From positions 27,780,848 to 27,844,847 of the forward strand of contig CM120643.1 of NCBI GenBank assembly GCA_051362555.1: a stretch of DNA of 64,000 nucleotides. Reading direction: 5' to 3'. The DNA comes from Lingula anatina. Taxonomy: Eukaryota > Animalia > Brachiopoda. This document shows, piece after piece, positions 36,360 to 59,757 of the stretch; within the stretch, counting starts at the first letter, position 1; every line of letters begins with the position of its first letter. The position numbers and the translations under genes are program-made. The notes beneath the pieces were generated by a model. The model was not told the DNA's origin, ran no database searches, and saw nothing but the letters and a program-made list of their open reading frames with translations.

Positions 36360-38298
36360 TTATGATGCTTCAGGCTTTTTTTCCTGAATCACTGAAAAAA
36401 CATTTTTAAACAAAGCAACAGGAAATGCCTGCCCTCTTTCAGGGGCAAAATCCTCATTTTCTCTTTTGACCACTTTATGGGATATCCCATCATTATCAGG
36501 ACAGCCTACATTTTCTCTTTTAACCACTTTATGGGATATCCCATCACTATCAGGACAGCCTACATTTTTACCATAGTCCACTCCTGTATCACAAGGTCCA
36601 TGTGCTATTGTGTGATCTTTTTCATGTAGATCACATGCATTTCTGCTGACAAATATCTTGTGACAGAACTTACAACTGTATGGTTTCTCCTCACAGTAAC
36701 TAACCTGATGAGAATCAAATTTATTTATATCAGTAAATCCTTTGTCGCAGTTTTCACATTTGTACAGTTTCACTCCTGAGTGAGTTCTTTCATGACCAGC
36801 GCGGAGGCATGTCCGAGTAAATGTCTCATCGCAAAACTGGCATTTGAATGGCCTTTCTCCAGAGTGAGTTTCTTCATGACCAGTACAGGAACTTCTATGA
36901 GCAAATGCCTTGTCACAGTACTGACATTTGAATGGTTTCTCACCAGTGTGAATTCTTTCATGTGAAATGCAATACCTTCTTTGAGAAAATGTCTTATCAC
37001 AATACTTGCATTTGTATGGTTTCTCTCCAGTGTGAGTTCTTTCATGAAGGGTACATGACAGTTTGTGAGTAAATGCCTTATCACAATACTGGCATTTGTA
37101 TTGTTGCTCTCCAGTGTGGTTTCTTTCATGAAGACGACAATTTTGTTTTTGGATAAACCCTTTATCACAGTACTGGCATTTGTATGGTTTTTCTCCAGTG
37201 TGAATTTTTTCATGATTATTGCAAGATCGTTTTGTAGTCATTTTTTTTGTCACAGTACTGACATTTGTATGAATTCTCTTTTGCATGAGTTTTTTCATGA
37301 GCAGTGCATCCTGCTCTTCGAGCAAACTTCTTATCACAGTGCTGGCATTTGTATGGTTTCTCTCCTGTGTGAATTCTTTCATGATTAATCCAATGCTGTC
37401 TTAGAGGAAATGTCTTATCACAGTACTGGCATTTGTATGGTTTCTCTCCTGTGTGATTTCTTTCATGATGAATGCAAGAATGTTTTGCAGTAAATCTTTT
37501 ATCACAGAACTGGCATTTGTATGGTTTTTTTCTTGAGTGAATTTCTTCATGAGCCTTACATCCTTTTTTTCGAGCAAAGGTCTTATCACAGTACTGGCAT
37601 TTGTATGTTTTTTTTCCAGTATGAATTACTTCATGACTTGAGCACAGAGACTTGTTTGTAAATGCCCTATCGCAGTACTGGCATTTGAATGGTTTCTCTC
37701 CAGTGTGAATTCTTTCATGTTCAATGCACGTTTGTCTGTGAAGATATGTCCTATCACAGTACTTGCATTTATATTGTTTTTCTTCAATGTGAGTTTTTTC
37801 ATGCCTTCTGCAAATATAATTTTGAGTAAATGCCTTATCACAGTACTGACACTTGTATGGTTTATCCCCAGTGTGAATTTTTTCGTGAACAACACAACTC
37901 CCTTTTTGAGGAAATGCTAGATCACAATACTGGCATTTGTATGGTTTCTCTCCAGTGTGAATTCTTTCATGATGGGTACATGACAGTTTGTGAGTAAATG
38001 CCTTATCACAATACTGGCATTTGTATAGTTGCTCTCCAGTGTGGTTTCTTTCATGAAGACGACAATTTTGTTTTTGAATAAACCTCTTATCACAGTACTG
38101 GCATTTGTATGGTTTTTCTCCAGTGTGAATTCTTTCATGGATAGTACGATTAGATTTATGAGCAAATGTCACATCACAGTACTGACATTTGTGTACTTTC
38201 TTTCTAATGCGAATTCTTTTATGAACAGAAGTATTTTTTAGAGAAACAGCAAATGTCTCATAGTCTCCCAACTGCTCTTCTTTCTTGGTGTTCTCCAT
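36360..38298 (-). CDS. Tandem C2H2 zinc-finger protein, paralog B (~19 fingers), with one frameshift in an A8 run
   Basis: ORFs 37216-38406 and 36360-37382 join if one A is removed at 37241-37248. Start MENTKKEE; C-terminus QAFPVALFKNVF. Upstream DNA is colinear with that of paralog A. Confidence 0.8.
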
Positions 38299-40444
38299 TT
38301 CTTCTTGGATGTTACTGATCACAGAATATCTACCAGCTTTTTTCTGTTTGTCTTTCAGTGAGAATTCTTTGATTTCAAACAAAATGTCCCTTTTTGGTAA
38401 AGTCACAATTTCTTCAGCAGTTGTAATTAAGTGCTCTCTTCAATGTGAGTGTGAGTTTCATAAAAAAGGCTGATTATTTTTGCTTATGAGGTTATTATCT
38501 CTCCACTTTCCTGATATCTATACAATATTTAAAATGTGTGTTCTATATCTGGTAAATTAATACAAAGAGGTTTCATACAAATCTCTCGCCACAACAAATA
38601 GTTTACTAGTAATGTGATTTCTCTTTTATTTAATGAAAAATGCAATTTTTTTTAGATTTAAGGTAATCACTGTCGTTTCTACAACTTTTTCTTCTGTTTT
38701 CAAAAGCTGTCCACAAATTCTTGGAATCTTCTGTCAGATGATTAATAAATGCTCTCTACAAATGCCTGCAGTTCAGCTAAACAGAAACATTCCCAAGGCA
38801 ATTAATGACTTCATATATTGATTTGTCCAGTCCCTGCAATAAAATCAATAAAGATGTTAGGTAATTATAGAAATAACAAGATACAGATTCTGCATTGATA
38901 AACACCTTCACATACAATGTACAATCAATGAAAGCACAACTGACTTTAACATTGCAGAAATAAATAAATAGATAAATGATTATGTTTTTATAAATGGCTA
39001 TATATACAAATGGATACTACGTGGATAAAAGATGAAATTCACATATTCAGAGTAAAAGTCAATACTGCCGTTTCTCTTTCATTTTTAATTCATCTGAAGA
39101 CAACAAATAACCTTGGCATCTATATTACATGAAATCTCACTGACCTCAGCAAATCTCTGCAGCTCAGCTATACAAACATTTCCCCACTTCCTTTTACTTT
39201 GAATTCTCCAGTCCCTAAGCTAATAGTATCAAAGTAGTCAGGTCCTAGAGAAGATGCAATCCATATATTTCGGAAGTTTCAGCAGCCTAGCGTGTCCAAT
39301 TCCTGGCAAAACAAAGGTTCAGAAAATCTCATCCGCCGCGCACGATCAATATATCCCTAGCCCAATAATGTATTCGTAAGGGACTGGGGTCCACTCCGGG
39401 CTCTTTTTAATCGCTTATCCAGAGCCCAAAATGAGTTAAATTACACCTTACGTATTGATGACGTCACTTCACATTAAAGAAACTCAAATCATTCAATGAA
39501 AAAACTTTTAACTAGGTCCTTACCCGACCACTCTCTACACATGCTGAATGAATTCGGAATAATAAAATGAATTAATTGACATTTGACGGGCTTCTTTCTT
39601 GCTTTCGGGATATAATTGCGCATGTGCAGAAGTGAAGTTCTTTGTGTCAAGCTTTGGACTGTCTATTATATCCTTGTATTTCTTTTGATATTTAATCTTT
39701 TGTGAGAATACTGTTGTGACGGAACATTGCCCTGCCTTTAGCCACTACGCTGTCCCTGCGCGGAGAGCGCGCATTTGCCGTAAGTACCAAAATACCAAGA
39801 GGTACGTGTACATGGGGAGACTGTATACATAAATGATAAAATGAGCTCTTCAAAGCCCTAATGAGATCTGGAAAAATGGCCATAATATTAAATAGTCAAG
39901 TTACTTATCAAACTTGTACAAAAATATGTGGAAAGAATTAAGAGCCCAGCTCATAGCTCCTGACAATATAATATTACTCCAAACTGAGCTTAGGTTTAAT
40001 CATCACTTTCATTTCTTTCATAATTTTATCATTAATTTTGCTATTATTATTCTAATAACCTCTAATATTAGGATGCAATCCACTCACTGTAAGCAAGTGG
40101 CTCGGCAAGTGGATCAACCCTAACATACCATGTGATTATAAATGCTTTCTTCATGCATGTCTATACTATACAATTGTGCTGCTATATCTTTCTGTTTATT
40201 TATATTCTTATTTATTTGATATAGTTAGATGTATGGTAGCATCCATGATTTGATGATTATACCTTATGTGACATGTGCAGTTATAGAGACAACAGATTTA
40301 TTAAAGAAATGAGGTACACTACACAGCAGTCTGCAATCTCACTACCCTCTACCAGGGCAACAGCAATATCTTACTGGGTAAGTATACCAGTAGAACCAGT
40401 GGATACCAAACTAAGTTAATACTGTTAACAACATGAAAATTGAG

Positions 40445-40483
<39 letters not shown>

Positions 40484-41295
40484 GAACAACTCATAGAAAT
40501 ATCATAAATAACTTGTTACCACCAGAACAGCAGTTATCACAATTATTCTGGAATCTGTGTTTGTCATCAGACCACAGGTACCTATATAGATGGCTATTAA
40601 TACTAGGTACCTCCATTATAATCTTTTATGTGAATATTACAGAAAAAGAAACTTTTTATAGCAGTCTTTGTACATGGAATGGATTCATTAACCATTGGTA
40701 AGTATCGGTTTGGGGAAATTGCTGTTTACCCCAGGAAAGTTAAAATTTTGACCAAAATGAACAGATGTTATCCCTTTAAGCCAACCTTGGGCTCTGGATA
40801 ATGGTGTGAATGTCACACTGTCAAGTTATTCAAGTTTTATGTTCAGCACTGGGCACGGTATAGGTTATTGAAACATCTGAAATAATTTTGTTTTTCATCA
40901 CATTTTATTTTTAGGGGCTGGATTATTTGAGAAAGAACTCCATACAAATATACAAGTTCATTGTGTGATAGGAGATTCGCACCAGAAACCTTTGTTTACT
41001 ACTAATTAGCAGTTCATAGACTGAAAGAAGTACGAATATCAGGGCAGTAGTGGGAAAGAACAAAAAAATGTGTTCTCATAAAGAATTCTTGAGTTGAGAG
41101 CAATTAAACCACCCACAAGTACCTAGTTTCTGCATATGCTGTGACACAATTACATTCAGGGAGAAGAATTGTGCATGTTGAAGTTCTGTGGTCAGCCAGC
41201 AAAAGTTCTGTCAGAATCTTTTTACCATTTGAAATTGTTAACATTTATTGGGAAAATACAAATCCCAGAGCTGTAATAAGACATTTACTTTCAAA

Positions 41296-42105
41296 ATGAA
41301 TTGCACTGCCCCTGAAAGAATTCACACTGGAGAGAGACCATACAAATGCCAGTATTGTGATAAGACATTTACTCAAAAGGGGAATTGCACTGAACATGAA
41401 AGGCTTCACACAGGAGAGAGGCCATACAAATGCCAGTACTGTGATAAGACATTTATTAAAAAAGATAATTGCAAATTTCACATAAGAATTCACACTGGAG
41501 AGAAACCATTCAAATGCCAGTTTTGTGATAAGGCATTCATGAAAATACAGAATTGCAATCGACATGAAAGAATTCACACTGGAGATAAACGATACAAATG
41601 CCAGTATTGTGATAGGGCATTTACTTACAAACAGTCTTGTACTAAACATGAAAGAATTCATACTGGAGAGAGACCGTACAAATGCCAGTACTGTGATAAG
41701 ACATTTATTCAAAAATACAACTGCAGTCTTCATGAAAGAATTCACACTGCAGAGAAACCATTCAAATGTCAGTACTGTGATAAGAAATTTACTCAACAAT
41801 GGATTTGCATTCATCATGAAAAAAAACACACTGAAGATATACTAGTAACCTACAAGTGTAAGTTTTGTGACAAGATATTTGTCAGTAGAAGTGAATGTGA
41901 TCTACATGAAAAAGATCACACTGATGCATCAGCTGTTCAGATACCAAATGGTCAGAATGCTACAGAAGTTGACCATGGTAAAACTGCAGTCTGTCAGGAT
42001 AGTAATGGTGTACCACAGGTATTGGTTATAAACAAACTTGATGATTGTGGTCCTGCAGGAGAGCAACCATATCCTGTGGCTTTGTTTAAAAATGCATTTG
42101 CTTAG
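41296..42105 (+). CDS. C2H2 zinc-finger protein, paralog C (7 fingers)
   Basis: Seven CxxC..HxxxH units after a degenerate first finger; ends QPYPVALFKNAFA. Start uncertain (ORF opens at TTG 41248, first ATG 41296). Candidate upstream donors near 39780, 40378 and 40698. Confidence 0.82.
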   Translation: MNCTAPERIHTGERPYKCQYCDKTFTQKGNCTEHERLHTGERPYKCQYCDKTFIKKDNCKFHIRIHTGEKPFKCQFCDKAFMKIQNCNRHERIHTGDKRYKCQYCDRAFTYKQSCTKHERIHTGERPYKCQYCDKTFIQKYNCSLHERIHTAEKPFKCQYCDKKFTQQWICIHHEKKHTEDILVTYKCKFCDKIFVSRSECDLHEKDHTDASAVQIPNGQNATEVDHGKTAVCQDSNGVPQVLVINKLDDCGPAGEQPYPVALFKNAFA

Positions 42106-43804: not shown

Positions 43805-44324
43805 GTGCGTGAGCGTGCACGCAAATTCACGTGCGCACAAGTACAAGTACATGTGCCCACAAGTTATCTAATAGACTTGCGTTACGCGTATACGCATTGA
43901 CAAACACATTCAACTAAACGTCTGAACACACACGCACACATGCTCGCCCTCGCGCACAAGCACGTACAAACACACACACACGCTACAACACACAAATCTG
44001 ATGCCCACCACGTACAATATACAGAGAGATAATCCCAGATATCACACCTCTAAGATAATACCAACACCGTGGAGGTGTCAGCCGTTATATTCCCTGTCCT
44101 GTGACCCACCCCTTCTCACACACAATACTTCTAATTTACTGCCATGCACCGCTGAACTTAGATAACTTTCCCTGCGACATTACTTTTAACGCATTGCTTG
44201 ATGTGACATCAGATAAACGTGGGTTGGTCATGAATATGTGAACGGTTTTCTTATGAAAGGACGGTTGTGTAAGCCGTCACGTTGACGGACATGCGCGATA
44301 GTAGCCGATACGGTTTCAATTAAG

Positions 44325-44470
44325 TGTTATAAAACGGCGTTATAAAACAATACGCTTTATTTATTAGAGAGAGTGAAGGCGGGCCAGTCAATGTGAAGGT
44401 ACTTCAAAGACGCTGTGAGGTGAAACACGAAGCAACTCATCATTTTCTAAACGAAAGAGGACTTAAGGTA
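44325..44470 (+). promoter_or_regulatory. Candidate TATA promoter and non-coding first exon of the CRTAC1-like gene
   Basis: Two TATAAAA boxes (~44328 and 44341), donor aag|gtaaat at 44468, and acceptor ttccag directly before the ATG at 45013. Confidence 0.5.
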
Positions 44471-45012
44471 AATACTCGCTGTGTTAACCTGAAGCATGCA
44501 TGGTGCTAGGCGTACTGTACTCACCAGCTTAACTATACCGCACTGAGAATCATCACCGGGGTATAATCCTATAGTCAGTGAATACTCCTTGTTCCGCTGT
44601 CATTGATTTTATGTACACATTGCGCTACGTTACCATTTGACCTCCAGTGGCTATTTTGAGTATGTTAGCAGGGCTTTGTCACAGCCCCAGGTATTTAGAA
44701 GGCATATGATCTGCATGTATAGTTATTGCTGATTCTGTAAGGGTCATATGCATGTTTAGTGCGTCTATGTGTGTGCGTGTGTTTATTTTATTGTAGACTC
44801 TGCGCCATCTAACCGAGAAATGTGCGAGCGTGTTACTGCATGTGCATGATTGTGTGCGTGCGTGGTCCAGAAAAGACATAGTTTGAACCAACAAAATAAT
44901 AGGCGTGTATGTTTCTGGAATGTAATATTTGTCATATTTGAAAAATAAAATCATACGGGAGTAAATTTACTGCCTTTTCTTTTTAATCAAAGAATATAAA
45001 CGTAATTTCCAG

Positions 45013-48000
45013 ATGTTATCCCAAATACTGTCCCTTGCCTGCCTGGCCGCCATTGCTAAGCAGACGACAGCCCAGGGAATGTTCCGACGTACATCTGACG
45101 AGTGGGGGTTGTCCGGCATCCCGACCACCCAGCTTAACTACGGCGTCGCTGTGGCAGACGTCGACCTCGACAAGAAGTTTGATTTTATCATTGCTGGGTA
45201 AGGCCCAACTTTTGTTGTCTCTAACCAGGCGCCTGTTTCACAATAGAAGTTTACACCGAAATTTGTTATCAACTTTAGGGCCATCAATTCAGTATGATTC
45301 CGTTGTAGTCCGCTAAGATTGAGTAGCTATAGGACCGTTAAGCTTTCTTTTCTCATGACGCTTCGCAACTACTGGTTTTCCCGCTTTTTAAGTTGACAAT
45401 TAAGTTTTTTCTAAGCACCATTTGAACCCAATGTGAATCCGTGTCTTTCCCTTAAAAAAAAACATCAATATTAAAATTTATAATTTGTTTTCAGGTTTGG
45501 CGGTCCAAATATTGTTCTGAAATACGACAGATCGCTGGGACGTCTTGTCAACATCGCACAGGAAGACACGCCGTACGCCGCCCTGAGAGATAAAGATGGT
45601 AAGTGCAATGGCGGATTTGGGGGGGGGGGGGGGGGGGGTCGTCAGGGGGTCTTGACCCCCCCCCCCCCCAATTCGATTTTTGAAAAAAAAATCACACCAA
45701 TCTTCTCCTCTTGAAATTAGAACTAGGACTAGCTGAATCACAATTATAAACCGTACCAAATAGCACCGTTCGCCCTCTAAAATACCAGTTTTTTTCGGGG
45801 CCCTTCGGCCGGCCCCGGACCCCACACCGGGGAGGGGGGGGTAGGGTCTGAGAGTCGCGGTTTGGCTTTACATCCGCGGCCTGTCATTCTTAAAAACCGG
45901 ACCCCCTTCCCTCTTCAAATAATCCCGGATCCCCCCCTGAAGTGTATATCAGGAAAGGTTAGTTAGACTATAATTATACTTATAGCCTGTAACGCCAGCC
46001 ACCACTGGAGGCAAGTGACTTGTAACTTTAGCGTTGAATATGGTGATAGAGTTGGAATTTATAGGGATTTTAGATGACAAGAAACGGTCAGAGATCCAAA
46101 ACTGAAGAAATATACGTAAGGAAAGAAGTCCTTATTCACTACCTGGCATATAATAACATTCCTTTCTTCATTTTAATCACTTGAACGAAAAAGAGGAATG
46201 AAAAACAAGAGTAGGCCCTATCGCTTAAAAATCTGTTATCTGAGTCACATCGAGCTCTGCATTGTAACTTTTCTCCTTAACAGACACTCCGTGAAACATT
46301 TCAGTGCGTTGTTATTAAGATAAAAATCGGCTGTCACACGCTGCAGCACGTGTTTATGCTCTTTATTTACCGCAAAGTTTTTTTCACATCTGGGTCAATT
46401 TGGTAAAGTTTGAGACAATAAACATTTACGTGTATCAACCTGTGCTAGGTTGGATGCTAGGTTGGATGCTAGGTTAGTCCAGTGACCTAGATCTTTATCT
46501 AGGTCATAACTTAGCCCTACTTAGATAGGATAAAAAAAAAGATTTTTGAATTTATACAGAGAATGTCAAATAAGTACCGTATCCCTGGCAACCAACACAA
46601 CGAACTGCTTGGCCTTTAATAGCGCAGCAAAGTTTAGACAAATGATAAAATATTTTTATTTGTGGAATTATAATGTGAAATGTTTTACCTTTATGGCCAA
46701 TTTTAACTTAATTTATTGATTGAATTGAACAATATTTGATAGAATTATCCAACCGTTTGGTTAGAAGAAAATCTATTCTTGTCTGATCCCATTACTACTT
46801 CACAAACTCGGATATGATTCCCGTCTTTAAAAGCAGTTTTAAAAAATAAAAAGATATCGCCCTTAGAAGTGGTTTTCCTTTGTTTAAAAGGGGTTATGTG
46901 AAGGGACATATATGGAGAGGCTTACGTGTGACAAATTTGGCAAGAAAAGTGGCACGGATTGCTGTAGTTTTGCAATAAAAGGTCCAAGTTGATGTCGGGA
47001 TGGCAAATAAAAGTTGTATCGGTGTAAAATCAAAATTCCTTTCTCCGTTTATTTTACTGATAGTGATCAATTGAAGGTTGTCACGTGTTTTCGGCGACTT
47101 TCACCAGTCATAAATTGTATTAAAACGTGGTCATGGCGGACGTTAACGATGTCACAGGACGCGCAGACCATGTGGACCAATAGTTACGCTGTCACGGACG
47201 CTGACCAGTTACTCCTATCTCTAACGGTAATCAATGTAGGCCAAAATTAAAGGGCCGTGGATGAAAAACGTTTTGGAATGTGGCAGCTTATTTGTGGTCT
47301 AGCTCCGTGTTTGTCCAAAATTGGCCAAAACAATTCGATGGTGTTATTGACGAAAATATTTAATGTACATGTAAAATGAGTTGTTAAACGGTTTAAAGTC
47401 GCACGGGGTGTTAGAATATTGGTAAATGATGACTCATATGCTTCCTGGGGTACATGTAGTTACGAGTATAAAAAAAGGAAATATTGATAAGTATAAAAAA
47501 TGTATAAGGAAGTTCCGAAAAACATAGGCTATTAATGTAGAAGTGCACATTACGAATGTGAACGAATGTGAGCTTACTGAATCGAAGGAAACTCGATGTC
47601 CTGTATGAAATATGAAATACATGTGATTCACAGAATAGAAAAGAGGGGCGGGTTAGTACTCGTGCTGGAGTATAATACTTAAAAGAAGTGCGCGAAATTA
47701 AAATCTGAAGATGTATTGATATAATAAGCAATAAATAATAAATGATTTGGGATACATGGGTAAACCTAAATATACTCAAGTTATTAGAGTAACCAATTGC
47801 CAAAACATCATCTTATTTAAAAGTTGGGTACATATTGTATATTTAGGTGCTGCCATTGGCGTGGCTGCCTGCGATATCGATGGAGACGGCAAGGAAGAGA
47901 TTTACTTCCTGAACACAAACGGGGCGTACGGCGGTCAGAGCACGTACAAGGACAAATTGTTCAAGTTCAGGAACGGCATGTACGTGGACCTGTTCTCTGA

Positions 48001-51000
48001 TCCAGTCAACAGTGCCCTAGGAGCAGTTAATTTTGCCGGAAGATCTGTCGCCTGTGTAGACCGCTATGGGACCGGGAAATATGCTTTCGTCTTGGCGGCA
48101 TACTCGAATGGTGGGTTTAAAACATTTGAAATTGGCGTCTGTTTTTGTTTTTTCGCCATTTTTTTTCCGTGGGATATATTTTTGTATTCAAATTATATTT
48201 CCGCCAAATTATATATTATTACATATTATTAGGATTTGACGAAACGTTTATATTTTGGTATTCATTTTTTCATGTTTAATTTAAAAAATCACATCTTAAT
48301 AGTCTCCGTTCTAGGAAAGGAATTGTATTTCAGTGTATATTACTGGTTTTCCTATTCTTCTGACACAGATGGGAGGTTCAGAATTTTATTTCATGTATTT
48401 TTAATTCTTATGTCTCAAATGGATGCCTAATAATGTTCATAAACATTTCTGTTTAAGGTAACATGGGCGAATTTGCCATGATTGAGATGGACGAGCAACA
48501 CCCGCAAAACGACAAGGCCACGGGTATGATTGTACTAAGGAACGTTGCCAAGGAAGCAGGAATCGACAAGCAAACAGGTAAGTTATTTCTTACTATCGTT
48601 CTCTCTGCCCTTCACATTACTGCACTCTTGTGACTGATAAAAAGCTTACGAAAGCAGCATTTTCTTTTGCTAAATGCGGGTGTCGTTGGGGCATCGAAAC
48701 GGGTCAATTGTTGGCAGATTTTGTTTTATATTATGATTGTACAGGTTCTATAAATCATTGCCTCATATACCCAAGACTGTTATTAATTCGGCGAGATGAC
48801 GGTGAACCTGACAAATAAAAAGCAGTGTGATCACTTAATTGTGGGAATAAAATAGTCAATTATGATGTAGCCTGCACGCAAACTAAAAAATTACATGTCT
48901 GCAATCTCATTTCTTGCAGGTGGGCGTGGTGTTACCGTGGGACCCATAGTGACTGACAGGTCAGATATGTTCTTTGTGAACGAGGGCGGTAACTTTGGCA
49001 ACAAGGGAGATAACTTCCTCTTCAGAAACATGGGCAATGGCATGTTTATGGACGTCGCCCCCATGGTCGGTAAGGGAAAGTTGAAAAAACAACATTTTAC
49101 TTAGTCAGAAAGCTTTCATTTATTTTACTTGTTTTTATTTTTTTATTTTCATGCAGAATCTTGTACTCTGATTTGTTTTAAACAATGACTAGTAAAGATC
49201 GACAGTCAGTAAATATGAAAATAGTCTCAGAATTTATAAACGCCAATCATTGTTGACGCAGGTGTGACTGACAGCGACACAAACGGAAGGGGCGTGGCTC
49301 TCTCGGACTTCAACCACGACGGTATGCTGGACATCGTGTACGGCAACTGGAACGGCCCGCACAGGCTTTTTATGCAGAGTAACGCCACCGGGATGCCCTC
49401 GTTTATGGTAATGTCTAAATCACATGCTCTGATAGCAATAATGAGAAGTAGTATTTTCCTTTAATTTTGCAGCGTTTCAAGAGGTCGGAAATATGGGCTT
49501 TCTGAAAATAGTTTTTATTAAATATGAATATAATAAAGGATGTTCTCATTGAGTGTAGTGAAATGCGTTCGGTTTCTTCTCTAATAAAAATTGTTAATTA
49601 ACGGGATAGTTCTTACAGATTTGAAAAAAATATACGAGGCGAAAAAAAAAAACGTAGTCGCACAACATAAAAGACATCTTTTTGTCGTGTCTATGTCAAC
49701 AACATACCAATTACATCACCACTTAAATTTCATTACAGAATGTTGCCAAGGGAACGTTTGAAGACCCCACCGCCATTCGAACCATGATTGCAGCAGACTT
49801 TGACAACGACGGGGATGTGGAGGTTCTTCAGAACAATATTTATTACAATGGACCACAACCAAATAAACTGTTCCGCGTCTCCCCCACGGGCGCCGGTATG
49901 AACATAGCCCAGCTGGATATTGGGGACGCCCTGGAGTACTACGGCTTTGGCACAGGTGAACTAATTAGAACTTAGTAAAAGTAAAGAAGAAACTTGCAAA
50001 AAAAAAAAAGTGACCTATACTTTACTAATTTCTTTGTCTCATTACTATCGCCTTAAGTTATCGTTTGAACGTAATTATTGCACGTGATTGATGAAATTAA
50101 TGATTTATCCCATTCCACGATAGGTGGCGCTGTGACCGACCTGGATGGCGACGGCCAACTGGAACTGCTTCTGTCCCACGGGGAGTCAAGCAGGCAGCCT
50201 CTGGAGATCTATAATGTCACCATGGGCAGTGACCGTAACTGGATGAGGGTACACGCTTACACCAGGTACGGCGCTCCCGCACGCGGTGCCAAAATAACAG
50301 TTGTCGTGGAAGATGGCACCACGAGAACGCGTATCCTGGACGCTGGATCCGGGTACCTTTGCCAGATGGAGCCCGTGGCCCACATTGGTCTCGGGATGAA
50401 GAAAGGGGTGCAGTGCCGCATCCAGTGGCCTGATGGGAAGGTACTGGTGCTGCCCCTAGGGGATAAAGATCAGATGGCACCGCATTATGTCCCATATCCC
50501 GTCGAGGAGGGAGAGGAAGGGATACCGGAACCAGAGCCAGGGATGGGCTCCATGCCAGAACCGTCTCCAGAGCCGGGCTATATGGGAGGGGACGGCAACA
50601 GTATGGGAGACGGTTACTCCACACCAGAACCAGGCTACATGGGAGGCAATATGGGAAGTGGATCCAGCAATGTGGGAAGTGGATATTCTACACCAGAACC
50701 AGGCTACATGGGAGGCAATATGGGAAGTGGATATTCTACACCAGAACCAGGCTATATGGGAGGCAATATGGGAAGTGGATCCAGCAATGTGGGAAGTGGA
50801 TCAAGTAATATGGGAAGTGGATATTCTACACCAGAACCAGGCTATATGGGAGGCAATATGGGAAGTGGATATTCTACACCTGAACCAGGCTATACGGGAG
50901 GCAATATGGGAAGTGGATCAAACAATATGGGAAGCGGATATGCCACACCAGAACCGGGCTATACGGGGGGCAATATGGGAAGTGGATCGAGCAATGTGGG

Positions 51001-51229
51001 AAGTGGATCAAACAATATGGGGAGTGGATATTCTACACCAGAACCAGACTATATGGGAGGCAATATGGGAAGTGGATCCAGCAATGTGGGAAGTGGATCG
51101 AGCAATGTGGGAAGTGGTTCCGGCCTGTACATGGGCGACAAAGAGGGGATGAAGAATGAAGGAGACGTTCAGACAAATAATGGGAATTATAACACACAAC
51201 AAGGTACGAATAGACACGAAGAATTATAG
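45013..51229 (+). CDS. CRTAC1: Cartilage acidic protein 1-like (FG-GAP propeller plus ASPIC/UnbV) with a low-complexity tail, 8 coding exons
   Basis: Exons 45013-45197, 45495-45598, 47847-48110, 48458-48577, 48920-49069, 49262-49407, 49739-49955 and 50124-51229. Signal peptide; motifs PTTQLNYGVAVADVD, AIGVAACDIDGDGKEEIYFLNTN, GRSVACVDR, GRGVALSDFNHDG.LDIVYGNWNGPHRL, GSGYLCQMEPVAH.GLG and WPDG match recalled CRTAC1. Confidence 0.9.
45606..45939. mobile_element. CAG-type MITE with 5-bp TSD inside a CRTAC1 splice donor region
   Basis: aagtg|caatggcggatt ... ggatccccccctg|aagtg; the TSD is positions +3 to +7 of the intron. Confidence 0.75.
50610..51120 (+). repeat. Coding tandem repeat: 7 x GY(S/A)TPEP(G/D)Y(M/T)GGNM with GSGS(S/N)N(V/M) spacers
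   Basis: Read directly from ORF 50078..51229. Confidence 0.9.
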
Positions 51230-51909
51230 CAAATTAGAGTATGCATTATCGCTCAAATCACTGCCAGTTGTTTGTGATGCTATTTTGCATCTTGGTTTTG
51301 CATGCGAAACGTACTATAATTTAGAACATTATCATTATCTCACTATCAGTCACAGAAATTATGGTTTCGAGCTACACTCGTCCCTTCTCCTGCTTACAAC
51401 TAAATCGCTGAACAAATATCCACTTTGGCTAAGGAAAAGCGAACAATATTGTTGTTTTTCAACATATTTATTACTGATAAAATTTCTAAATTTGATTTCG
51501 TTTAAATTATCCAGCATTTTTGCTAATAGAAATTTAACAGTAGAGGAAGGCCAGGTTTCTTACTCACAAAAACTATCTGTGATATTTTCTTATTGTAGTA
51601 TGATATGCTAATGTGCGTGGTTATTTATTCATACTGTAGTCAGTTACATCATGAAGAGATATAGAATAGTGCATGTAGTTGATATACCGTTTTCTTTAAT
51701 GTGGAACTGAATATAAATCTGTTAGATAATCCACAATGTTGGAATGCCTTTAAGTCGTGTGAACTTGAGGTATGTGTCCAAACATTCCGAGAATGGTAGA
51801 ATATGAATCTCATTATATAAATAAAACTAAATAAATGAATTAATAAACAAGAAAGATTTAAGGCTTAAACACTGGAAAATCACTGTAAAAATTTATGCAT
51901 TGCTTCAAG

Positions 51910-51966
51910 GGGCCGGCATGTACACTATTGGCACAGGTTATATGCTGAACCCGGCGATGTCCGCAG
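51910..51966 (+). CDS. Candidate 57-nt phase 1-1 linker exon (GAGMYTIGTGYMLNPAMSA)
   Basis: ttcaag| ... gcag|gtgaga; open in phase 1, and G/M/Y-rich like the CRTAC1 tail. Confidence 0.5.
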
Positions 51967-53054
51967 GTGAGAACAAAACACTTGGATATCCCGATATCTT
52001 ACCTGGGGCCTCCCACCTCCCATACTAAAAATTTAAAAAATTAACACTCATGTTCTAATAACACTATTTTTGTACTTGTATATAGGTTTTATATGTTAGA
52101 CGCAAAACTGTAGTGATTAGCGCTTAATGTTATGTTGTGGGATCAAATTATAGAGATGATAGATAGATGAGCTCAACAGATAGCGTCGCCCCAGTACGGC
52201 GCCGTCTTTTTGTCTCAGTGCGGGGATTGTAGCGGTCGTTGAGGTGTACTGTGGTGACGTTGAAATTAAAACCATAGTGAACGATCTATTTTTACATAGA
52301 ATATTTTATGTTGATGTCTGAATTATAATATTATGAAACAGAATACTAACGACCCAGTGAACTCTACTTTACATTAACATACCGAAATAAAACTGGTGTT
52401 GGTTTATATGCAATGATTATAATATTGTTTATCTCACTTTAAGCGCATTTATTTTTTGTTATCAAGTCATCTTTCTTTTTAACAAATTGTATCTCTATGG
52501 AGGTGTATCTCAACAGTACTGTACCCTCGTGTTATGATAGTGAACAGTGCCGTATATTAGATATATATATATATATTGTACATTTCATTTTCAAATAGTA
52601 TTTTTGAATTGCGGATTACTTTATGCCACATTTAACATGTGATCTAACCACCTCAAATGTCATAACCCGTACACTGATCCAGATGAACATTTTAATCACT
52701 CAAACCTGGAACCCGAATCCACCTCGTCTTTTCGGTGACAGTGATTTGTGCTGACATTTATGATGATAGTTATGCATAGTTACCAATTATCATGTTAATA
52801 TTGTGGAAAGAGTAAGTTATGTGCATGGTTCTTTGCTGTTGTTATTTTTTCCAGATCTTGGTTGTCGCTGGACTTAAATGAATGGTGCAAATGTTGATAT
52901 TGTAATAAACTATTTTTGAATTTTCGGCAGTGTTGTTTCTTCTGATAAATTCAGGGTAAATTCACCATCGGGAATAACAGTCCAGTGCCTTCTCTCTTCG
53001 TTTAATAATAAAGTGGTTTAATTCTGATGATAAATAAATTGCGTTTCCCTCCAG

Positions 53055-53885
53055 GTATGTACAATAGATGGTACAGTGGCCGCTGCAGCTTCTATCGGAC
53101 CGCGTGGAGCACCTGCTCGGTCACGTGCGGTACAGGGAAGTCCTGGCGTTCCTCCAACTACAACTTTGGCTGTGTGATGCAGAGGGAGAGCCGCACGTGT
53201 GTCATGCCAGCGTGTCCTGTACCCCAGGTAACAATATGGCCATGGTTGATGCTTGTTTTTCAGACGACACTTCCTAATAAAATTTTTCATTAAAATGATA
53301 AAATGATTTTATTAATTAAACTTTCATTCAGACGGATGGGTTTCGTGGCGGAAATTTTTTGTTCGTTTTCAAAATTGTTATATGTAAAAGATGTATTATA
53401 TTAAGTTTTTTTTTTCAACTCTCAGTTTTTGTTTTCTGATTTCATTCACGTGCTGTGTTAATTAAAAAACAAAACTTATGTTGTTATTGCTGTAGAAACA
53501 GTCTTGTTCGACTAAATCTTGGCACACTTTGACTGAATATTTGATGGAAATAATGACCAACAACTAGAAATAATGACCAATAATTAGCTAAAAAATCCAT
53601 TTTAACAATCCTAAAAACAAAACCATTTGCTCATTCTTTCTTGACCCCACATTTCAGACCTATTATTACGGCGCATGCGGTACCTCCATGTTTGGCTACC
53701 AGACGATAGCTCTGGACGGTTGCCCTAACGTCCGCTACGTGGGTATGAGAACGTGCAACCAGTGCGCTAACACCATGTGCTGCGTCCCTGTCAGTCGCCT
53801 GGCCCCGCTCAGGTATATGTGTGACGACGGTACCCTGAAGACCAAGATGGTGTCCCTGAGGCAGTACTGTCAGTGTTGGTGCTAA
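53055..53885 (+). CDS. CCN-type TSP1 exon (53055-53227) plus C-terminal cystine-knot exon (53658-53885)
   Basis: CSFYRTAWSTCSVTCGTGKSWRSSN.N.GC..QRESRTC...AC follows the CCN TSP1 pattern; C...GC...TCNQC...CCVP...YMCDDG...YCQC follows the CCN CT pattern. GT-AG boundaries, a phase-1 entry and no own signal-peptide exon seen. Confidence 0.8.
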
Positions 53886-54931
53886 TTTTAGCTGTGATCT
53901 GCAGGGTTTATGATATGAGTGGACTTGAATATAGTGATTTAACTTATCAGTGGGCAATCAATCTGCTGAATATTTGAAAGTGGAGGGATTTCAGATTGAA
54001 AAGGAGACGTATGCACGCAAGACTATTAACTTTGAAAAAAAAGTGGTCTTACTCACATACACGACAACCTCGTACGTTACATTTTCGGGACATTTCTCGA
54101 GCCAGGACTGTCGTTAATTCTGAAAACTTAAAACATTCAAACTGATCATCTGCTTTACAGAATCGTCAGTGGAAAGTTGTGAGGTTTATTGTTTTAGTAA
54201 GACTGAGTCAATATAAATTGTATTAATGTTTCGTTAACGTTGGTGCTACTTGTTATTTTCTTGCAAGAGAGGGTGCTATGGAATTATGAGCCTCAGATCA
54301 AAAAGCGTGTTTTTCAAAATGCCGTATTTTAAAACAATATATTTACAAGTTTTTGTATCTAGTCAGCTTTAATCCACCGGTTCCATTTTTTCATCATCAT
54401 TTTTGTACATTTCATTGTCATTTTTGGTAACTAGTAGCTTTAGTAATTGTTAAAGTTTAAACGAATTTTACAAACAAATGTGGCTTTTTAGTATTTTTCT
54501 ACTAATTTTATTTTTTATCTAAATATAAGCAGACTTATGTCTAGTCAGGTAGAAAACATTTTCAATGTTCATAAAAAGTTATGAATATGATAAATAAATA
54601 TTATACCTTTAAATGGCATTTGTTTTTAAAAGGGATTCTTCTCATAGGCCTTGGTCTCAAACCATCAGACCGGTACAGAAATGGAAGTTCTAGCAATGAA
54701 AGTCTGGGTCCCAAAAAACATGACTTTCGGCTAATTTAGTAAAATTGGGAGAAACATTAACATTGACAGATTTCATTGCTTGATTTCAAAAATAAGTCAA
54801 GCATGCAATATCTTTAAGAAAAAAGGCGAATCATTTCATTGTACATTGTTTTTAAGCGGATTAAAACTATTATTCCGCAGCTTATTCGCAAAATCTTCGA
54901 CTGATCAATTTCCTTTTTGTCTAAAGTTTTA

Positions 54932-54975
<44 letters not shown>

Positions 54976-55343
54976 AAAAGTTAGACCGAGACAATGAACT
55001 CGCCCAATAAAATAATAAAAAGAAAACAGTAGTTCTGTAATTTTGACAATCTCTCCAACCATGTTTACAATTAATTGAAATTTTCTTGCTAGGTTAAAGA
55101 AAGCAACACAAGTCTATGTATTCAACAAAGTATTTTATATCTTTCCCAAGCAGATGTCGATAACAGCTTTAATGCAGGAGTAAAAATTGTTTAAAAAATA
55201 CAGAATATTGTATCCTCTTACTTAATGGAAGTAACACAAAGTTAGAAATATGTACTAATCATTAACATTAAATATATTCTTCTTCAAATATCCCCCTTCA
55301 TCATTCTGGGCCAAATACCTTAATATTGATATACTTAATAAGT

Positions 55344-57344
55344 CTAGTTAGCCGTCTTTTTCCTCTTGAAATACGTCGGGGCCGCCTCGTACAGCCACTG
55401 TGGGTCCACCACGCTCAAGTTCCTCATATAACACTTACTGGTCTGTACCAGCTCATTGTAAATGACACAGCCCGGCTTCCGCATGAACAGTGAAGAAGAT
55501 GGGTGAATGACCACCGTTTTCTTAGACGCCACGGTCTTATATACTCCTTCGTGCTGCAACTCCGCAGCGTTTGTGAAAAATCCGTGACAAAGACACTTGC
55601 GTATGACCCCCGTGTTTTGTCCGCATGATTTGAACGGGAGTTGAAGGTGCACACATATCTCGCGCAGCTGTTTGCGTATCTGAGACGCCGTCTGCGTGTT
55701 GCGGGCGTTGATGAAGTTTTCCTGACACCACTGTTTGTCGCCCTTGACGCCTTTGTACGCCCTGTAAACATTCAACAGCGTCAAGTGATCCCCCTCGCTG
55801 GAAATAAACTTCTGTCTGGCCGCGTGCGCAGTGTCGCGTTTATTATAAGGCGTGTGGAACACGGACTCCACCGACAACAGTGAAACAACAGTCAACATTT
55901 CCTCGAGACAATCGAACTCCTTCGCTGCCAGCAGCACGCGAGATAGGCGAGGGTCAAGGGGGAAAGCAGCAAGTTGTCGACCTAACAGAGTTAGCTGGAC
56001 TTTTTCTTGTTTCTCCACGGCGCCAAGAAGAACCAGTTGGTCCAGAGCCGCCAAGATGGCCTCCGGTCGCGGCTTGTCCATGAAATCAAAATGGACGATA
56101 TCGGAGATTCCTAACGCCAGAAGCTGCAGTATCACACTGGAGAGATTACAGCGCTGTATTTCAGGGATTGTGTTTGTGGAGAACTGCTCGAATTCCTCCT
56201 CTGTGTACAATCGATAGCACGTGCCCGGGGCCTCGCGCCCTGCTCTCCCCGTACGCTGCCATGCTTGAGATTTGGAAACCCAGCAAACTTTCAGCATATC
56301 CAAGCCGCTATTAGGGTTAAAGATCTTGGCTTTCACCATGCCTGTGTCAACAACAAATTTTATGTTTGGAATGGTTACTGAGGTTTCTGCGATGTTTGTC
56401 GCGACGATGACCTTGCGAACGCCCCCTGGTGTCGGCTGAAAGATTCTCATCTGTTGCCCAGTTGGAAGAGCTGCATACATTGGGCAGACGATCATGGGTG
56501 CGTATTGCTTGGTTACGTCCTTAACGATATCCCTGAGCGTGTGAACTGCAGACTCGATCTCCTCTTGGCCTGTCAGAAATACCAGGATGTCCTGTCCCAG
56601 TGGCGCCTCCTGGTGGATTTGCATGACGGCCACCAGAGCTGAAAAGAGGTAGTCACTTTGGGACTGAACTGAGTAGTTTACCTGAATGGGATACTGGCGT
56701 CCTTCAAGATAAAATACTGGGGCGCAATCGAAGTACTGAGAAAATTGATCAACATCCATGGTGGCAGACATGACTAATATTTTCAATTGTGGAAGTCCTT
56801 TCGCTCGGCGACGTTTCTGAGCCCCCTTCACAACACCAAAGAGCACGTCTGTGTGGACCGTCCTTTCATGAGCTTCGTCTAATATGACAAAGGAGTAACG
56901 CTTCAGTAATGGATCGAGTGTTGACTCACGTAATAACATTCCATCTGTCATAAAGCGTATTTTTGTTCCCTGACAACTGACATCTTCAAATCGTACACAA
57001 TATCCAACTGTCTGACCCAACTCTGTACCCATTTCTTTCGATACACGCTCAGCAATACTAATGGCAGCCACTCGTCGCGGCTGTGTTATTGCAATGGTGT
57101 GGTTGCGGTGCATCCCTGCCTTGTACAGAAACTGTGGGATTTGGGTTGTCTTGCCACAACCAGTCTCTCCAATGATAATAGCAGTGCTGACTTGTTGCAC
57201 ATTTTGCAGCAGTTTCCCCTTGGCAGGAAAAATGGGCAGTTTCTTTCTCTCTTCCAGCAGCTCGTCTCGTGTTGGCTCCACTGAGGTCAGCTTGACCCTC
57301 TTGGCTGGCTTTGGAGACCCCAGCACACCCTTGGTACTCATCAT
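55344..57344 (-). CDS. DHX33: ATP-dependent DEAH-box RNA helicase DHX33
   Basis: GETGCGKTTQIPQ, TQPRRVAA, DEAHERTVHTDVLFGVVK.AQKRR, MSATMDVD.FSQYF, QRTGRAGR, HA2 and OB regions. CDS in one exon; upstream exon donor at ~58207. Confidence 0.92.
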   Translation of the reverse strand: MMSTKGVLGSPKPAKRVKLTSVEPTRDELLEERKKLPIFPAKGKLLQNVQQVSTAIIIGETGCGKTTQIPQFLYKAGMHRNHTIAITQPRRVAAISIAERVSKEMGTELGQTVGYCVRFEDVSCQGTKIRFMTDGMLLRESTLDPLLKRYSFVILDEAHERTVHTDVLFGVVKGAQKRRRAKGLPQLKILVMSATMDVDQFSQYFDCAPVFYLEGRQYPIQVNYSVQSQSDYLFSALVAVMQIHQEAPLGQDILVFLTGQEEIESAVHTLRDIVKDVTKQYAPMIVCPMYAALPTGQQMRIFQPTPGGVRKVIVATNIAETSVTIPNIKFVVDTGMVKAKIFNPNSGLDMLKVCWVSKSQAWQRTGRAGREAPGTCYRLYTEEEFEQFSTNTIPEIQRCNLSSVILQLLALGISDIVHFDFMDKPRPEAILAALDQLVLLGAVEKQEKVQLTLLGRQLAAFPLDPRLSRVLLAAKEFDCLEEMLTVVSLLSVESVFHTPYNKRDTAHAARQKFISSEGDHLTLLNVYRAYKGVKGDKQWCQENFINARNTQTASQIRKQLREICVHLQLPFKSCGQNTGVIRKCLCHGFFTNAAELQHEGVYKTVASKKTVVIHPSSSLFMRKPGCVIYNELVQTSKCYMRNLSVVDPQWLYEAAPTYFKRKKTAN

Positions 57345-57631
57345 TCTGGTTTCCCTAAATAAGAAAGCCACAATTAACATGCATGCATAACCACTATCAT
57401 ATCAAATCAGGTATATATGTGTCAAGGAAGGGTTGACTCACAGGTGAAGGACAAGACAGCATTAATTAAGGTCAAGATTTGTTGATTATGCACTAAGAAT
57501 TAAACCAGTACTCCGTGATTTTCTTCAATCAACAGAAGATGCAACCACATTCTCTCTGTTATCATTTAGTTGGCCTACATATTAGTATGCAATATGCTGT
57601 TTTCCAGTTTAACATCCCATCTTATGCTTAT

Positions 57632-58520: not shown

Positions 58521-59151
58521 ATTGATAGCTGTATTAATTGTAAGGTACAGATAATTAAATATTAAGACGTACATACACATTTAAATAAAATAAAACACCA
58601 CAAAAATAACCAAATCACTACATAATAATAGAGAGTGAACTTACAACTTTTAAGATAAGGTGTTAGCCCGCACAAGGGGGCACATGACAATAGGAGGCGC
58701 TGCATGAATTATTGATGGCTTTGTGTCTACGCTTGCAAATAATTCCAAGCTCTGCTTTATTCGTTCCAAATCTTTTTGGTTGGATGTTGGATACGACAGG
58801 TTACTAAAAATCTATAATTTATGGATTGCATCTTCTGTAGGACGTGATTACTTTCATAATGTTAATGTATGGACTGGAGGTCGTCGGGAATGCCTCCGTT
58901 TAGCTGAACTGCAGACATTTGTTAAAGGGTCTCTTATTTGTCATCTAAGAGAAGATCCAAAGGTTTTGTGTTCCAAGCTTTCAAAATTTTCACCAAAACG
59001 GATGTGTTCTACATGTAAAAGATCACGCTGATGCATCATCTGTTCCAATAGCATTATGATACAGCAGTTGACCATGGTAAAATCAGAAAAACATTACTTG
59101 TCAGACTAGTGCAATTATGTGAAATAATAATAAGAAAAAAGTGAGAACACC

Positions 59152-59757
59152 ATGAACGAAAACAAATGCCAGTACTGTAATAAAACATTTACTAGAAAAG
59201 GATCTTGCTACGAACATGAAAGAATTCATACAGGATGGAAACCATACAAATGCCAGTTCTGGTTCTGTAATAAGAAGTTTACGAAAAGATATAATTGCAT
59301 TGTTCATGAAAGAACTCACACTGGAGAGAAACCGTTCAAATGCCAGCACTGCGTTAAGACATTTACTCGTAAAGAGGCGTGCATTCACCATGAAAAAAGT
59401 CACACTGAGGAGAAACCATACAAATGCCAGTACTGTAACAAGACATTTAATATAAAAAATGATTGTGTTGATCATGAAATTATTCACAAAAAAGATAAAC
59501 CGTACAAGTGCAAGTTTTGTTACAAGATGTTTGTCAGCAGAAATGAATGTGATCAGCATGAAAAAGATCACACTGATGCATCATCTGTTTTGATAGCACA
59601 TGGTCAGAATGACATAGAAGTTGATCATGGTAATATTTTAGTCTGTCAGAATAGTGCTGGAATATCACCTCTCATGGTTAAAGGTGAAAATGAAGATTAT
59701 GGCCATGCAGTGGAACGACCATATCCTGTTGCTTTGTTTAAAAATGTATTTGCTTAG
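59152..59757 (+). CDS. C2H2 zinc-finger protein, paralog D (5 fingers)
   Basis: ATG-initiated ORF with five fingers, ending ERPYPVALFKNVFA. Confidence 0.82.
   Translation: MNENKCQYCNKTFTRKGSCYEHERIHTGWKPYKCQFWFCNKKFTKRYNCIVHERTHTGEKPFKCQHCVKTFTRKEACIHHEKSHTEEKPYKCQYCNKTFNIKNDCVDHEIIHKKDKPYKCKFCYKMFVSRNECDQHEKDHTDASSVLIAHGQNDIEVDHGNILVCQNSAGISPLMVKGENEDYGHAVERPYPVALFKNVFA

What the first reader, a model, noticed from the sequence alone, without database searches (positions are those of the whole stretch)
45013..53885. Putative CRTAC1-CCN chimera: ASPIC/FG-GAP propeller, repeat spacer, TSP1 and cystine knot in one secreted protein
Seen: the last CRTAC1 exon has a phase-1 donor (CAA G|gtacga, 51203). 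A symmetric phase 1-1 57-nt exon lies at 51910-51966, and a phase-1 acceptor at 53055 opens TSP1 and CT exons that have no signal-peptide exon of their own. All three junctions keep the frame (...NTQQ-GAGMYTIGTGYMLNPAMSA-GMYNRWYSGRC...). Known: vertebrate CRTAC1 ends in an EGF-Ca domain, and TSP1+CT is the C-terminal half of CCN proteins. Inference: exon shuffling made a matricellular protein architecture I do not recognise as described.
Basis: partly seen in the sequence, partly recalled or inferred. Interest (0 to 1): 0.85.

Follow-up and report, generated by a model that had tools for sequence, protein, structure and literature searches.

The report
CRTAC1 spliced onto half a CCN
In a lamp shell (the gene's product differs from a Lingula anatina record at 6 of 907 residues), a cartilage-acidic-protein gene is spliced onto the back half of a CCN growth-factor gene, which likely gives a secreted hybrid, while the unspliced frame still ends in a short tag predicted to hold a second form inside the cell.

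Summary
An 11-exon frame is open for 907 aa: FG-GAP propeller, ASPIC domain, 235-aa Gly/Ser/Pro spacer, CCN-type TSP1 and a cystine knot with CCN cysteine spacing. RNA reads join 51203 to 53055 in 2 of 7 runs laid, from two studies (6 reads). The 57-nt exon has no read support here but is in 5 of 6 RefSeq isoforms. All six carry the fusion under the plain name 'cartilage acidic protein 1' [Lingula anatina], so it is annotated; my searches found it described nowhere and in no other species.

New here: the fusion donor lies 24 nt before a read-through stop, and that frame ends in HEEL, an ER-retention motif. 5 of 15 non-oyster homologues also end in one. The CCN half was therefore likely spliced onto an older last exon, and an ER-retained form may persist. 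Clam CRTAC1s swap tails too (MIB/HERC2 or hydrophobic). Function is inferred: a CCN-like ligand on a new carrier. A real lineage-specific domain shuffle, a new variant and not a new kind.

The parts
44266..44467 (+). Non-coding first exon (5' end not determined; start given is the first bin with good depth); donor after 44467 spliced to 45013
   Evidence: Joint 44467^45013 GT..AG in 14 reads of X2; the same join in X7 with diverged letters
45013..45197 (+). Coding exon 1: ATG, hydrophobic N-terminus read as a signal peptide, first FG-GAP motif
   Evidence: signal peptide judged by eye, no predictor run
45495..45598 (+). Exon 2, CRTAC1 propeller
   Evidence: joint 45598^47847 in 6 X1 reads
47847..48110 (+). 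Exon 3, FG-GAP repeats
   Evidence: joint 48110^48458 in X1 and X2
48458..48577 (+). Exon 4, propeller
48920..49069 (+). Exon 5, propeller
   Evidence: joint 49069^49262 in X1 and X2
49262..49407 (+). Exon 6, FG-GAP repeat
   Evidence: joint 49407^49739 in X1 and X2
49739..49955 (+). Exon 7, FG-GAP repeat
50124..51203 (+). Exon 8: last FG-GAP, ASPIC/UnbV domain (about 50279-50449), then the spacer; internal phase-1 donor after 51203
   Evidence: (UnbV_ASPIC E 4.5e-14)
50498..51203 (+). 235-aa acidic Gly/Ser/Asn/Pro/Met repeat spacer without cysteine (7 TPEP-G/D-Y units; pI 4.05); likely varies in repeat number between alleles
   Evidence: reads that 'go back' 48-178 nt inside it; RefSeq isoforms X3, X5, X6 lack repeat units
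51204..51229 (+). In-frame read-through of exon 8: 8 codons to a stop, ending HEEL (ER-retention motif); inferred older C-terminus, would give a 764-aa form
   Evidence: motif definition read in PMC2140024
51230..52925 (+). Intron of the fusion form; possible 3' UTR of the read-through form (AATAAA at 51820, 51830, 51842, 52386, 52904)
   Evidence: Sense-strand reads at mean depth 0.64 (X1) and 1.04 (X2), against 0.22 and 0.02 inside intron 2; few reads, no poly(A) end shown
51910..51966 (+). Optional 57-nt phase 1-1 exon (19 aa)
   Evidence: Sequence; in 5 of 6 RefSeq isoforms; no junction listed and almost no depth in 7 runs
53055..53227 (+). CCN-type TSP1 exon (phase-1 acceptor, phase-0 donor)
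   Evidence: TSP1_CCN E 1.5e-10; CCN3 TSP1 6rk1 by sequence E 1.2e-5 and by fold Z 6.3, rmsd 1.8 over 46; joint from 51203 in 6 reads
53658..53885 (+). CT (cystine-knot) exon, 10 Cys, stop at 53883-53885
   Evidence: CCN cysteine spacing; tblastn of CCN proteins E down to 1e-6; model matches Gremlin-1 Z 7.2, rmsd 2.1 over 68; no Pfam hit
53886..54620 (+). 3' UTR of the fusion form, likely ending near AATAAA at 54593
   Evidence: Sense-strand depth up to the 54148-54513 bin in X1, near zero after; signal position

Best explanation
This is one CRTAC1 gene whose eighth exon is spliced, through a donor 24 nt before its read-through stop, onto the TSP1 and cystine-knot exons of a CCN gene, giving a likely secreted hybrid in which the CRTAC1 propeller and a long spacer take the place of the CCN front half and hinge. 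Shown: the open frame, the domains, the 51203^53055 splice, and mostly synonymous change in the CCN exons. Inferred: the CCN exons were copied in behind an older CRTAC1 that ended in HEEL and was kept in the ER; splicing removes HEEL and so allows secretion; skipping the splice may still yield a 764-aa ER-retained form. Predicted by analogy with CCN2, untested: the disulfide-bonded, basic TSP1-CT piece is the signalling or matrix-binding part, held on a calcium-binding propeller and released or exposed by cleavage in the unstructured spacer.
For: Open 907/888-aa frames. Joint 51203^53055 in 6 reads from 2 studies. All 6 named RefSeq isoforms carry TSP1+CT. In the diverged X7 reads, 9 of 10 changed codons listed in the TSP1 and CT exons are synonymous; expected share 0.24, P about 8e-5 for 9 or more of 11 changes. 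TSP1 cysteine spacing 9,3,14,8,4 equals that of all 10 CCNs printed; CT spacing 14,10,2,4,0,12,15,1,1 against the usual 16,10,2,4,0,13,15,1,3. The intron before the TSP1 exon is phase 1, as in human CCN6 (c.589+2, table in PMC3369844). No IGFBP/vWC exon in the window (best HMM E 0.85). HEEL: 1 of 10 introns reads through to an ER motif, simulated chance 8e-5; 5 of 15 non-oyster homologues end in such a motif, among them chiton HEEL and a gastropod Gly/Ser tail ending SDEL. CCN2 as a pro-protein whose TSP1+CK fragment is active after hinge cleavage: passages of PMC10326224. Tail swapping in CRTAC1 is recurrent: vertebrate splice forms (PMC10477339) and clam isoforms.
Against: The junction rests on 6 reads in 2 of 7 runs and is flagged 'between: not known'. 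Depth on the TSP1 exon (0-2x) is below that at the end of exon 8 (7-9 reads at 51131) in X1, X2 and X3, and X2 has none. No RefSeq isoform among X1-X6 ends in HEEL, and no poly(A) end in the intron was shown. The module is very diverged (branch 5.7 against a median of 0.24). It lacks the KKGKK and DGR motifs that PMC10326224 ties to heparin and integrin binding, so CCN2-like receptor use is doubtful. The variant table was capped (30 rows not shown) and holds only reads at least 92% alike, which may favour synonymous changes. No cleavage site was identified.
Confidence: 0.6

Rival explanations
1. The fusion is real but works uncut, as a two-headed matrix linker or ligand trap: the propeller binds calcium or matrix, and the cystine knot binds a growth factor, as DAN-family antagonists do.
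For: The best fold match of the CT part is Gremlin-1 (Z 7.2), then NBL1 and Norrin (Z 5.9). CCN heparin/integrin motifs are missing. The spacer is Ser/Thr/Pro-rich and could be O-glycosylated and so protected (inference).
Against: No CCN cystine knot appears among the solved-structure hits, so Gremlin is only the nearest available fold, at a middling Z. By sequence the nearest full-length hits are all CCNs.
Confidence: 0.25
2. The main product is the ER-retained HEEL form, and the fusion is a minor splice form of little consequence.
For: Depth falls from exon 8 to the TSP1 exon; sense reads lie in the intervening intron at 3 to 70 times the depth inside intron 2. HEEL is intact.
Against: All 6 RefSeq isoforms are fusion forms. 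The CCN exons keep 16 cysteines and show mostly synonymous change. The last exon and 3' UTR have depth 3-4x in X1 and X2, near that of the upstream exons. The tool warns that dips in depth are no finding.
Confidence: 0.08
3. Two neighbouring genes: a HEEL-ending CRTAC1 and a small TSP1-CT gene with its own promoter and signal-peptide exon, merged by read-through splicing and by the annotation.
For: X2 shows reads on the last exon and UTR but none on the TSP1 exon. One hydrophobic ATG frame at 51241/51277 has an in-phase GT at 51310.
Against: That GT is a poor donor (AAC|GTACTA) and no joint from it was listed. The only joint listed into 53055 comes from 51203. None of the other 22 ATG frames of 12 or more codons listed for 51204-53054 pairs a strong hydrophobic stretch with a good in-phase donor.
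Confidence: 0.05
4. An assembly or annotation artefact.
For: The spacer is repetitive, and RefSeq isoforms X3 and X5 have deletions in it with no GT/GC-AG pair in the window, so parts of the annotation are unreliable.
Against: The same arrangement stands in the window and in a RefSeq record that differs at 6 residues, so likely another individual or assembly, and raw reads span the junction.
Confidence: 0.02

Closest known systems
CRTAC1 / ASPIC / LOTUS (solved chain 9etn_A; molluscan CRTAC1-like proteins)
   Same: FG-GAP propeller plus UnbV_ASPIC; E 2.5e-164 to 9etn over residues 38-526; 54-59% identity to the 119 nearest homologues. Alternative C-termini by splicing are known in vertebrates (PMC10477339) and seen in clam records.
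   Different: No EGF-Ca domain; a 235-aa repeat spacer; a CCN TSP1+CT tail found in none of 119 homologues (longest 619 aa); a read-through end in HEEL.
CCN proteins (CCN1-6, invertebrate Ccn), C-terminal TSP1+CK fragment ('d3-4-CCN2')
   Same: TSP1_CCN domain followed by a 10-Cys knot with CCN spacing; about 24-39% identity; phase-1 intron before the TSP1 exon; long flexible hinge ahead of the module.
   Different: No IGFBP or vWC; lacks KKGKK, DGR and the tail after the last Cys; very long branch; carried by a 500-aa propeller.
Venerid clam CRTAC1 isoforms (XP_045176382.2 Mercenaria, XP_060585606.1 Ruditapes)
   Same: The same N-terminal family with two annotated alternative tails, one of them a captured domain.
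   Different: The captured domain is MIB/HERC2 and the other tail is hydrophobic (GPI-signal-like by eye), not CCN and HEEL; an independent event.
Lingula EGF-collagen domain combinations (PMC4595640)
   Same: Lineage-specific domain shuffling in secreted proteins of the same animal (passages).
   Different: That paper's text and its one held supplement do not mention CRTAC1 or CCN terms.

Membership tests
CRTAC1 | FG-GAP repeat propeller | tested here: met
   PF13517 E 3.4e-19 and PF01839 E 1.2e-10, both above cut-off; E 2.5e-164 to solved CRTAC1
CRTAC1 | UnbV/ASPIC domain after the propeller | tested here: met
   PF07593 E 2e-13 at residues 448-504
CRTAC1 | N-terminal signal peptide | tested here: inconclusive
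   Hydrophobic N-terminus by eye; no predictor available
CRTAC1 (vertebrate form) | Calcium-binding EGF domain after ASPIC | tested here: not met
   No EGF hit at E up to 1, no Cys in the spacer; also not listed for any of the 119 nearest homologues, so it marks the vertebrate form, not the family
CCN | IGFBP module | tested here: not met
   No Pfam hit; tblastn and an HMM of 23 CCN N-halves find nothing in the window
CCN | vWC module | tested here: not met
   Same calls (19, 64)
CCN | CCN-type TSP1 module | tested here: met
   PF19035 35.8 bits against cut-off 27; cysteine spacing identical; 6rk1 match
CCN | C-terminal cystine-knot (CT) module | tested here: met
   10 Cys with CCN spacing, collinear alignment with CCNs, cystine-knot folds head the list for model residues 63-133 (best Z 7.2, middling); Pfam PF00007 does not hit
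CCN | Basic KKGKK before the knot and DGR loop (heparin/integrin sites of CCN1-3) | tested here: not met
   Absent in the window's module (motifs from PMC10326224)
CCN | [quoted passage not shown] | not testable with these tools
   Needs protein work
KDEL-type ER-resident proteins (read-through form) | C-terminal [KRHQSA]-[DENQ]-E-L | tested here: met
   HEEL before the stop at 51227 (pattern read in PMC2140024)
KDEL-type ER-resident proteins (read-through form) | A mature transcript that keeps this end | tested here: inconclusive
   About 8 (X1) and 13 (X2) sense reads' worth of depth in 51220-53049; not in RefSeq X1-X6; no poly(A) end shown
KDEL-type ER-resident proteins (read-through form) | ER localisation that depends on the motif | not testable with these tools
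   Needs cell imaging

The most novel reading that the evidence does not exclude
One regulated splice choice at 51203 switches this gene between an ER-resident CRTAC1 and a secreted pro-protein that delivers a CCN TSP1-CT ligand. It would be a natural experiment in which the active half of CCN was moved onto an unrelated carrier and kept under selection, possibly as this animal's only CCN-type signal (whether Lingula has an ordinary CCN gene could not be tested).
Probability: 0.22. Interest if true: 0.72.

Novelty: new variant of a known kind. Interest (0 to 1): 0.5.

Why it matters
It is a clear case of exon shuffling with the seam still readable: the old stop and ER tag sit 24 nt behind the donor that now leads to the borrowed exons. 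The captured piece is exactly the TSP1+CK fragment that is reported to be the active part of CCN2, so the protein offers an independent test of the idea that this half is a self-sufficient ligand. Together with the clam, chiton, gastropod and vertebrate tails, it suggests that CRTAC1 is a propeller whose C-terminus is repeatedly re-addressed (ER, membrane, matrix); my searches showed no paper on ER-retained invertebrate CRTAC1. The limits: one lineage, no function shown, and domain shuffling in Lingula secreted proteins is a known theme.

Tried and rejected
Whole genome: none is held, so I could not test for an ordinary CCN gene or a CRTAC1 paralogue elsewhere. Search for other fusions: TSP1 exon against longer proteins, 1 hit among 5 candidates, the Lingula record. 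Residues 770-907 against 498-1588-aa proteins, 1 hit among 22 candidates. Both are word-based and weak. HMMER over 1.84 billion representatives gave 116 hits; none of the 115 others matches the CRTAC1 half; orthologues over 50% identical would be hidden behind P0001. The best-looking candidate, P0127 (794 aa), is a CCN with vWC and an unrelated N-terminus. Only the best 120 of 1190 CRTAC1 homologues were listed, 104 of them oyster-like. ESM Atlas: the C-half returns CCN clusters (0.93), the whole protein CRTAC1 clusters (0.86); no listed cluster shows both families, but only clusters of 50 or more are searched. Second read lay: no junction across introns 8-10 reached the listing threshold. The AATAAA cluster at 51820-51847 as a poly(A) site: not accepted, because the X2 reads run on to about 51910 and X9 reads there are partial matches from elsewhere. 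Tree of 38 TSP1-CT modules: the Lingula row is too long to place. Propeller with TSP1-CT complex prediction: no verdict (score 0.00), not used either way. Foldseek gave no match at E 0.001 or better (best 6rk1, 1.9e-3). Earlier findings of this scan: none returned. Literature: 'CRTAC1'+'Lingula' gave 1 unrelated lung paper; searches listed nothing on this fusion; two Lingula papers and their held supplements have no hits for the CRTAC1/CCN terms tried. Subscription papers and figure content are outside this library.
Full report
What was checked. I read 44500-55500 and built the gene model by coordinates. Eleven exons (45013-45197, 45495-45598, 47847-48110, 48458-48577, 48920-49069, 49262-49407, 49739-49955, 50124-51203, 51910-51966, 53055-53227, 53658-53885), all with GT-AG introns, give an open frame of 907 aa; leaving out the 57-nt exon gives 888 aa.

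Identity. A search with the TSP1 exon returned one protein, P0001, of 907 aa, named 'cartilage acidic protein 1' [Lingula anatina]. It differs from the window's translation at 6 of 907 residues, so the window is inferred to be Lingula, from another individual or assembly. Its cluster holds RefSeq isoforms X1-X6 (XP_013403815.1, 816.1, 817.1, 819.1, 821.1, 822.1; five distinct sequences were read, of 6 members counted). All end in TSP1+CT, and all but X4 include the 57-nt exon. The fusion is therefore annotated, under a name that does not show it.

Domains. Pfam finds FG-GAP, UnbV_ASPIC and TSP1_CCN above their cut-offs, and no EGF, IGFBP, vWC or Cys_knot. Residues 38-526 match solved CRTAC1 (9etn_A, E 2.5e-164) and the TSP1 matches CCN3 (6rk1, E 1.2e-5). 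The last exon has 10 Cys. The spacing over TSP1 and CT is 9,3,14,8,4,10,14,10,2,4,0,12,15,1,1, against 9,3,14,8,4,13,16,10,2,4,0,13,15,1,3 in typical CCNs. In a HMMER search of 1.84 billion representatives, the hits that span both exons are CCN-type proteins at about 26-39% identity (30 of the 115 other hits were scanned with Pfam). An AlphaFold2 model of the 133-aa module (mean pLDDT 79, pTM 0.43) aligns with CCN3 TSP1 (Z 6.3, rmsd 1.8 over 46) and with cystine knots, Gremlin-1 first (Z 7.2, rmsd 2.1 over 68; a middling score). The 235-aa spacer is Gly/Ser/Asn/Pro/Met-rich, acidic, without Cys, and built of 21- to 138-nt repeats. TSP1 and CT are basic (pI 9.3 and 8.6).

RNA. Nine RNA runs were listed by species label. 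I laid 7 of them, of which 6-30% of each was read. Stranded runs show + strand transcripts. Joints were listed for introns 2, 3, 5 and 6, for a non-coding first exon (44467^45013), and for 51203^53055: 2 reads in X1 (study P1) and 4 in X7 (study P3), GT..AG, with 42 and 50 letters on the short side, flagged 'between: not known'; none in X2 or X4. The second lay (X2, X3, X8, X9) listed no joint across introns 8-10. Introns 1, 4, 7 and 10 were not listed either (two rows were not shown), so absence reflects low depth. The 57-nt exon had almost no depth in any run. TSP1-exon depth was 0-2x against 7-9 reads at 51131; the tool warns that dips are no finding. X7 reads are mostly 90-95% alike, a diverged population or paralogue. 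Of their listed changes in the TSP1 and CT exons, 9 of 10 codons are synonymous (expected share 0.24), which argues that the CCN exons are under purifying selection, with the caveat that the table was capped.

Unspliced, exon 8 continues for 8 codons to a stop at 51227-51229 and ends in HEEL, which fits the PROSITE ER-retention pattern (passages of PMC2140024). It is the only one of 10 introns to do so, and simulated read-throughs hit the pattern 32 times in 400,000; I noticed the motif before testing it. Among the 119 nearest homologues, 104 are oyster-like and have no tail. Of the other 15, five end in an ER motif (HNEL, REEL, chiton HEEL, KDEL, gastropod SDEL after a Gly/Ser-rich stretch), five in a hydrophobic tail, and five in neither. 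The simplest reading is that HEEL is the older end of this gene and that a donor inside the old last exon was recruited to reach the CCN exons. No tree of these tails was built, so the order of events is inferred. Whether the HEEL form is still made is open. Sense reads in 51220-53049 average 0.64x (X1) and 1.04x (X2), against 0.22x and 0.02x inside intron 2, and X2 depth stops after the bin that holds AATAAA 52904. These are about 8 and 13 reads, X3 shows few, and RefSeq lists no such isoform.

Origin of the tail. No IGFBP or vWC sequence is detectable in the window. The acceptor of the TSP1 exon is phase 1, as before the TSP1 exon of human CCN6 (c.589+2 in Table 2 of PMC3369844); that the next CCN intron is phase 0 I recall but did not verify. 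Molluscs and arthropods have CCN genes (passages of PMC6610741), so a donor in the lineage is plausible. The Lingula module sits on a branch of 5.7 against a median of 0.24 and cannot be placed, so the event is old or the module evolved fast.

How widespread. No second CRTAC1-TSP1-CT protein appeared; the limits are listed under Tried and rejected. Tail swapping itself is recurrent. Vertebrate CRTAC1 has a secreted and a membrane (LOTUS) splice form (passages of PMC10477339). Mercenaria and Ruditapes each have an isoform ending in a hydrophobic tail and one ending in a MIB/HERC2 domain (E 3e-9 and 1e-10).

How it most likely works. Shown: one gene, spliced to join the CRTAC1 exons to the CCN TSP1 exon. 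Inferred: the splice removes HEEL, so the product is secreted. By analogy: in CCN2 the TSP1+CK fragment is the active ligand, freed by cleavage of the hinge and more potent as a dimer (passages of PMC10326224). Here the same fragment hangs on a long unstructured spacer behind an acidic propeller, which could act as carrier, matrix anchor or pro-domain. Against a literal CCN2 mechanism, KKGKK and DGR are missing. My odds: fusion real and functional about 0.9; HEEL the ancestral end about 0.75; HEEL form still made about 0.45; release by cleavage about 0.4.

Comparison and verdict. It is a member of the CRTAC1 family. It is not a CCN (two of four modules tested and absent), though its tail likely works like a CCN C-terminal fragment. 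The searches named above found no paper describing it; for each paper cited I saw passages found by term search, one named section (PMC6610741, section 15) and, for two Lingula papers, term searches of one supplement each; the rest were search listings only. A real, apparently lineage-specific domain shuffle with an unusually legible seam: new variant of a known kind, interest 0.5.

Noticed in passing
proteins P0008, P0009, P0013, P0014, P0032: 5 of 15 non-oyster CRTAC1 homologues end in KDEL-type motifs, so some invertebrate CRTAC1s may be ER-resident, unlike the secreted vertebrate protein.
   Followed up: partly
proteins P0246, P0248 (XP_045176382.2, XP_060585606.1): Venerid clam CRTAC1 isoform X1 ends in a MIB/HERC2 domain plus a short Cys-rich tail, while X2 ends in a hydrophobic tail: a second, independent domain capture on the same family.
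   Followed up: partly
window 50498-51120: The spacer repeats seem to vary in number: reads jump back 48, 159 and 178 nt, and the deletions in RefSeq X3 and X5 have no GT/GC-AG pair in the window, so those 'isoforms' may be repeat alleles or alignment artefacts.
   Followed up: partly
window 55344-57401 (- strand): Intronless DEAH-box RNA helicase frame of about 666 aa (DEAD, Helicase_C, HA2, OB fold), DHX33-like by recall, convergent with the CRTAC1 gene; possibly a retrocopy.
   Followed up: partly
window 37216-38439 (-), 41242-42105 (+), 59134-59757 (+), and an 84-nt repeat array at 19734-20554: Several C2H2 zinc-finger frames with 84-nt periodicity flank the gene: a zinc-finger cluster.
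   Followed up: partly
window 61047-61799 (- strand): RING plus B-box frame (TRIM-like) of 250 aa.
   Followed up: no
window 45036-45123 and 47875-47944: Some X1 reads and all listed X7 reads carry many mostly synonymous differences while X2 matches the window: deep allelic divergence, cryptic species or a paralogue.
   Followed up: partly
window 45618-45790: G-run/C-run inverted element in intron 2 that draws partial reads from elsewhere in all four runs; likely a dispersed repeat.
   Followed up: no
window 16272-17110, 8616-9394, 30658-30824, 33053-33245: Tandem arrays: 43-nt unit x19, 161-nt unit x4.9, and 16-nt units.
   Followed up: no
window 53096-53140 (TSP1 exon): The TSP1 keeps a W-x-x-C and a C-x-x-T-C-x-x-G stretch, recalled as C-mannosylation and POFUT2 O-fucosylation consensus sites.
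   Followed up: no
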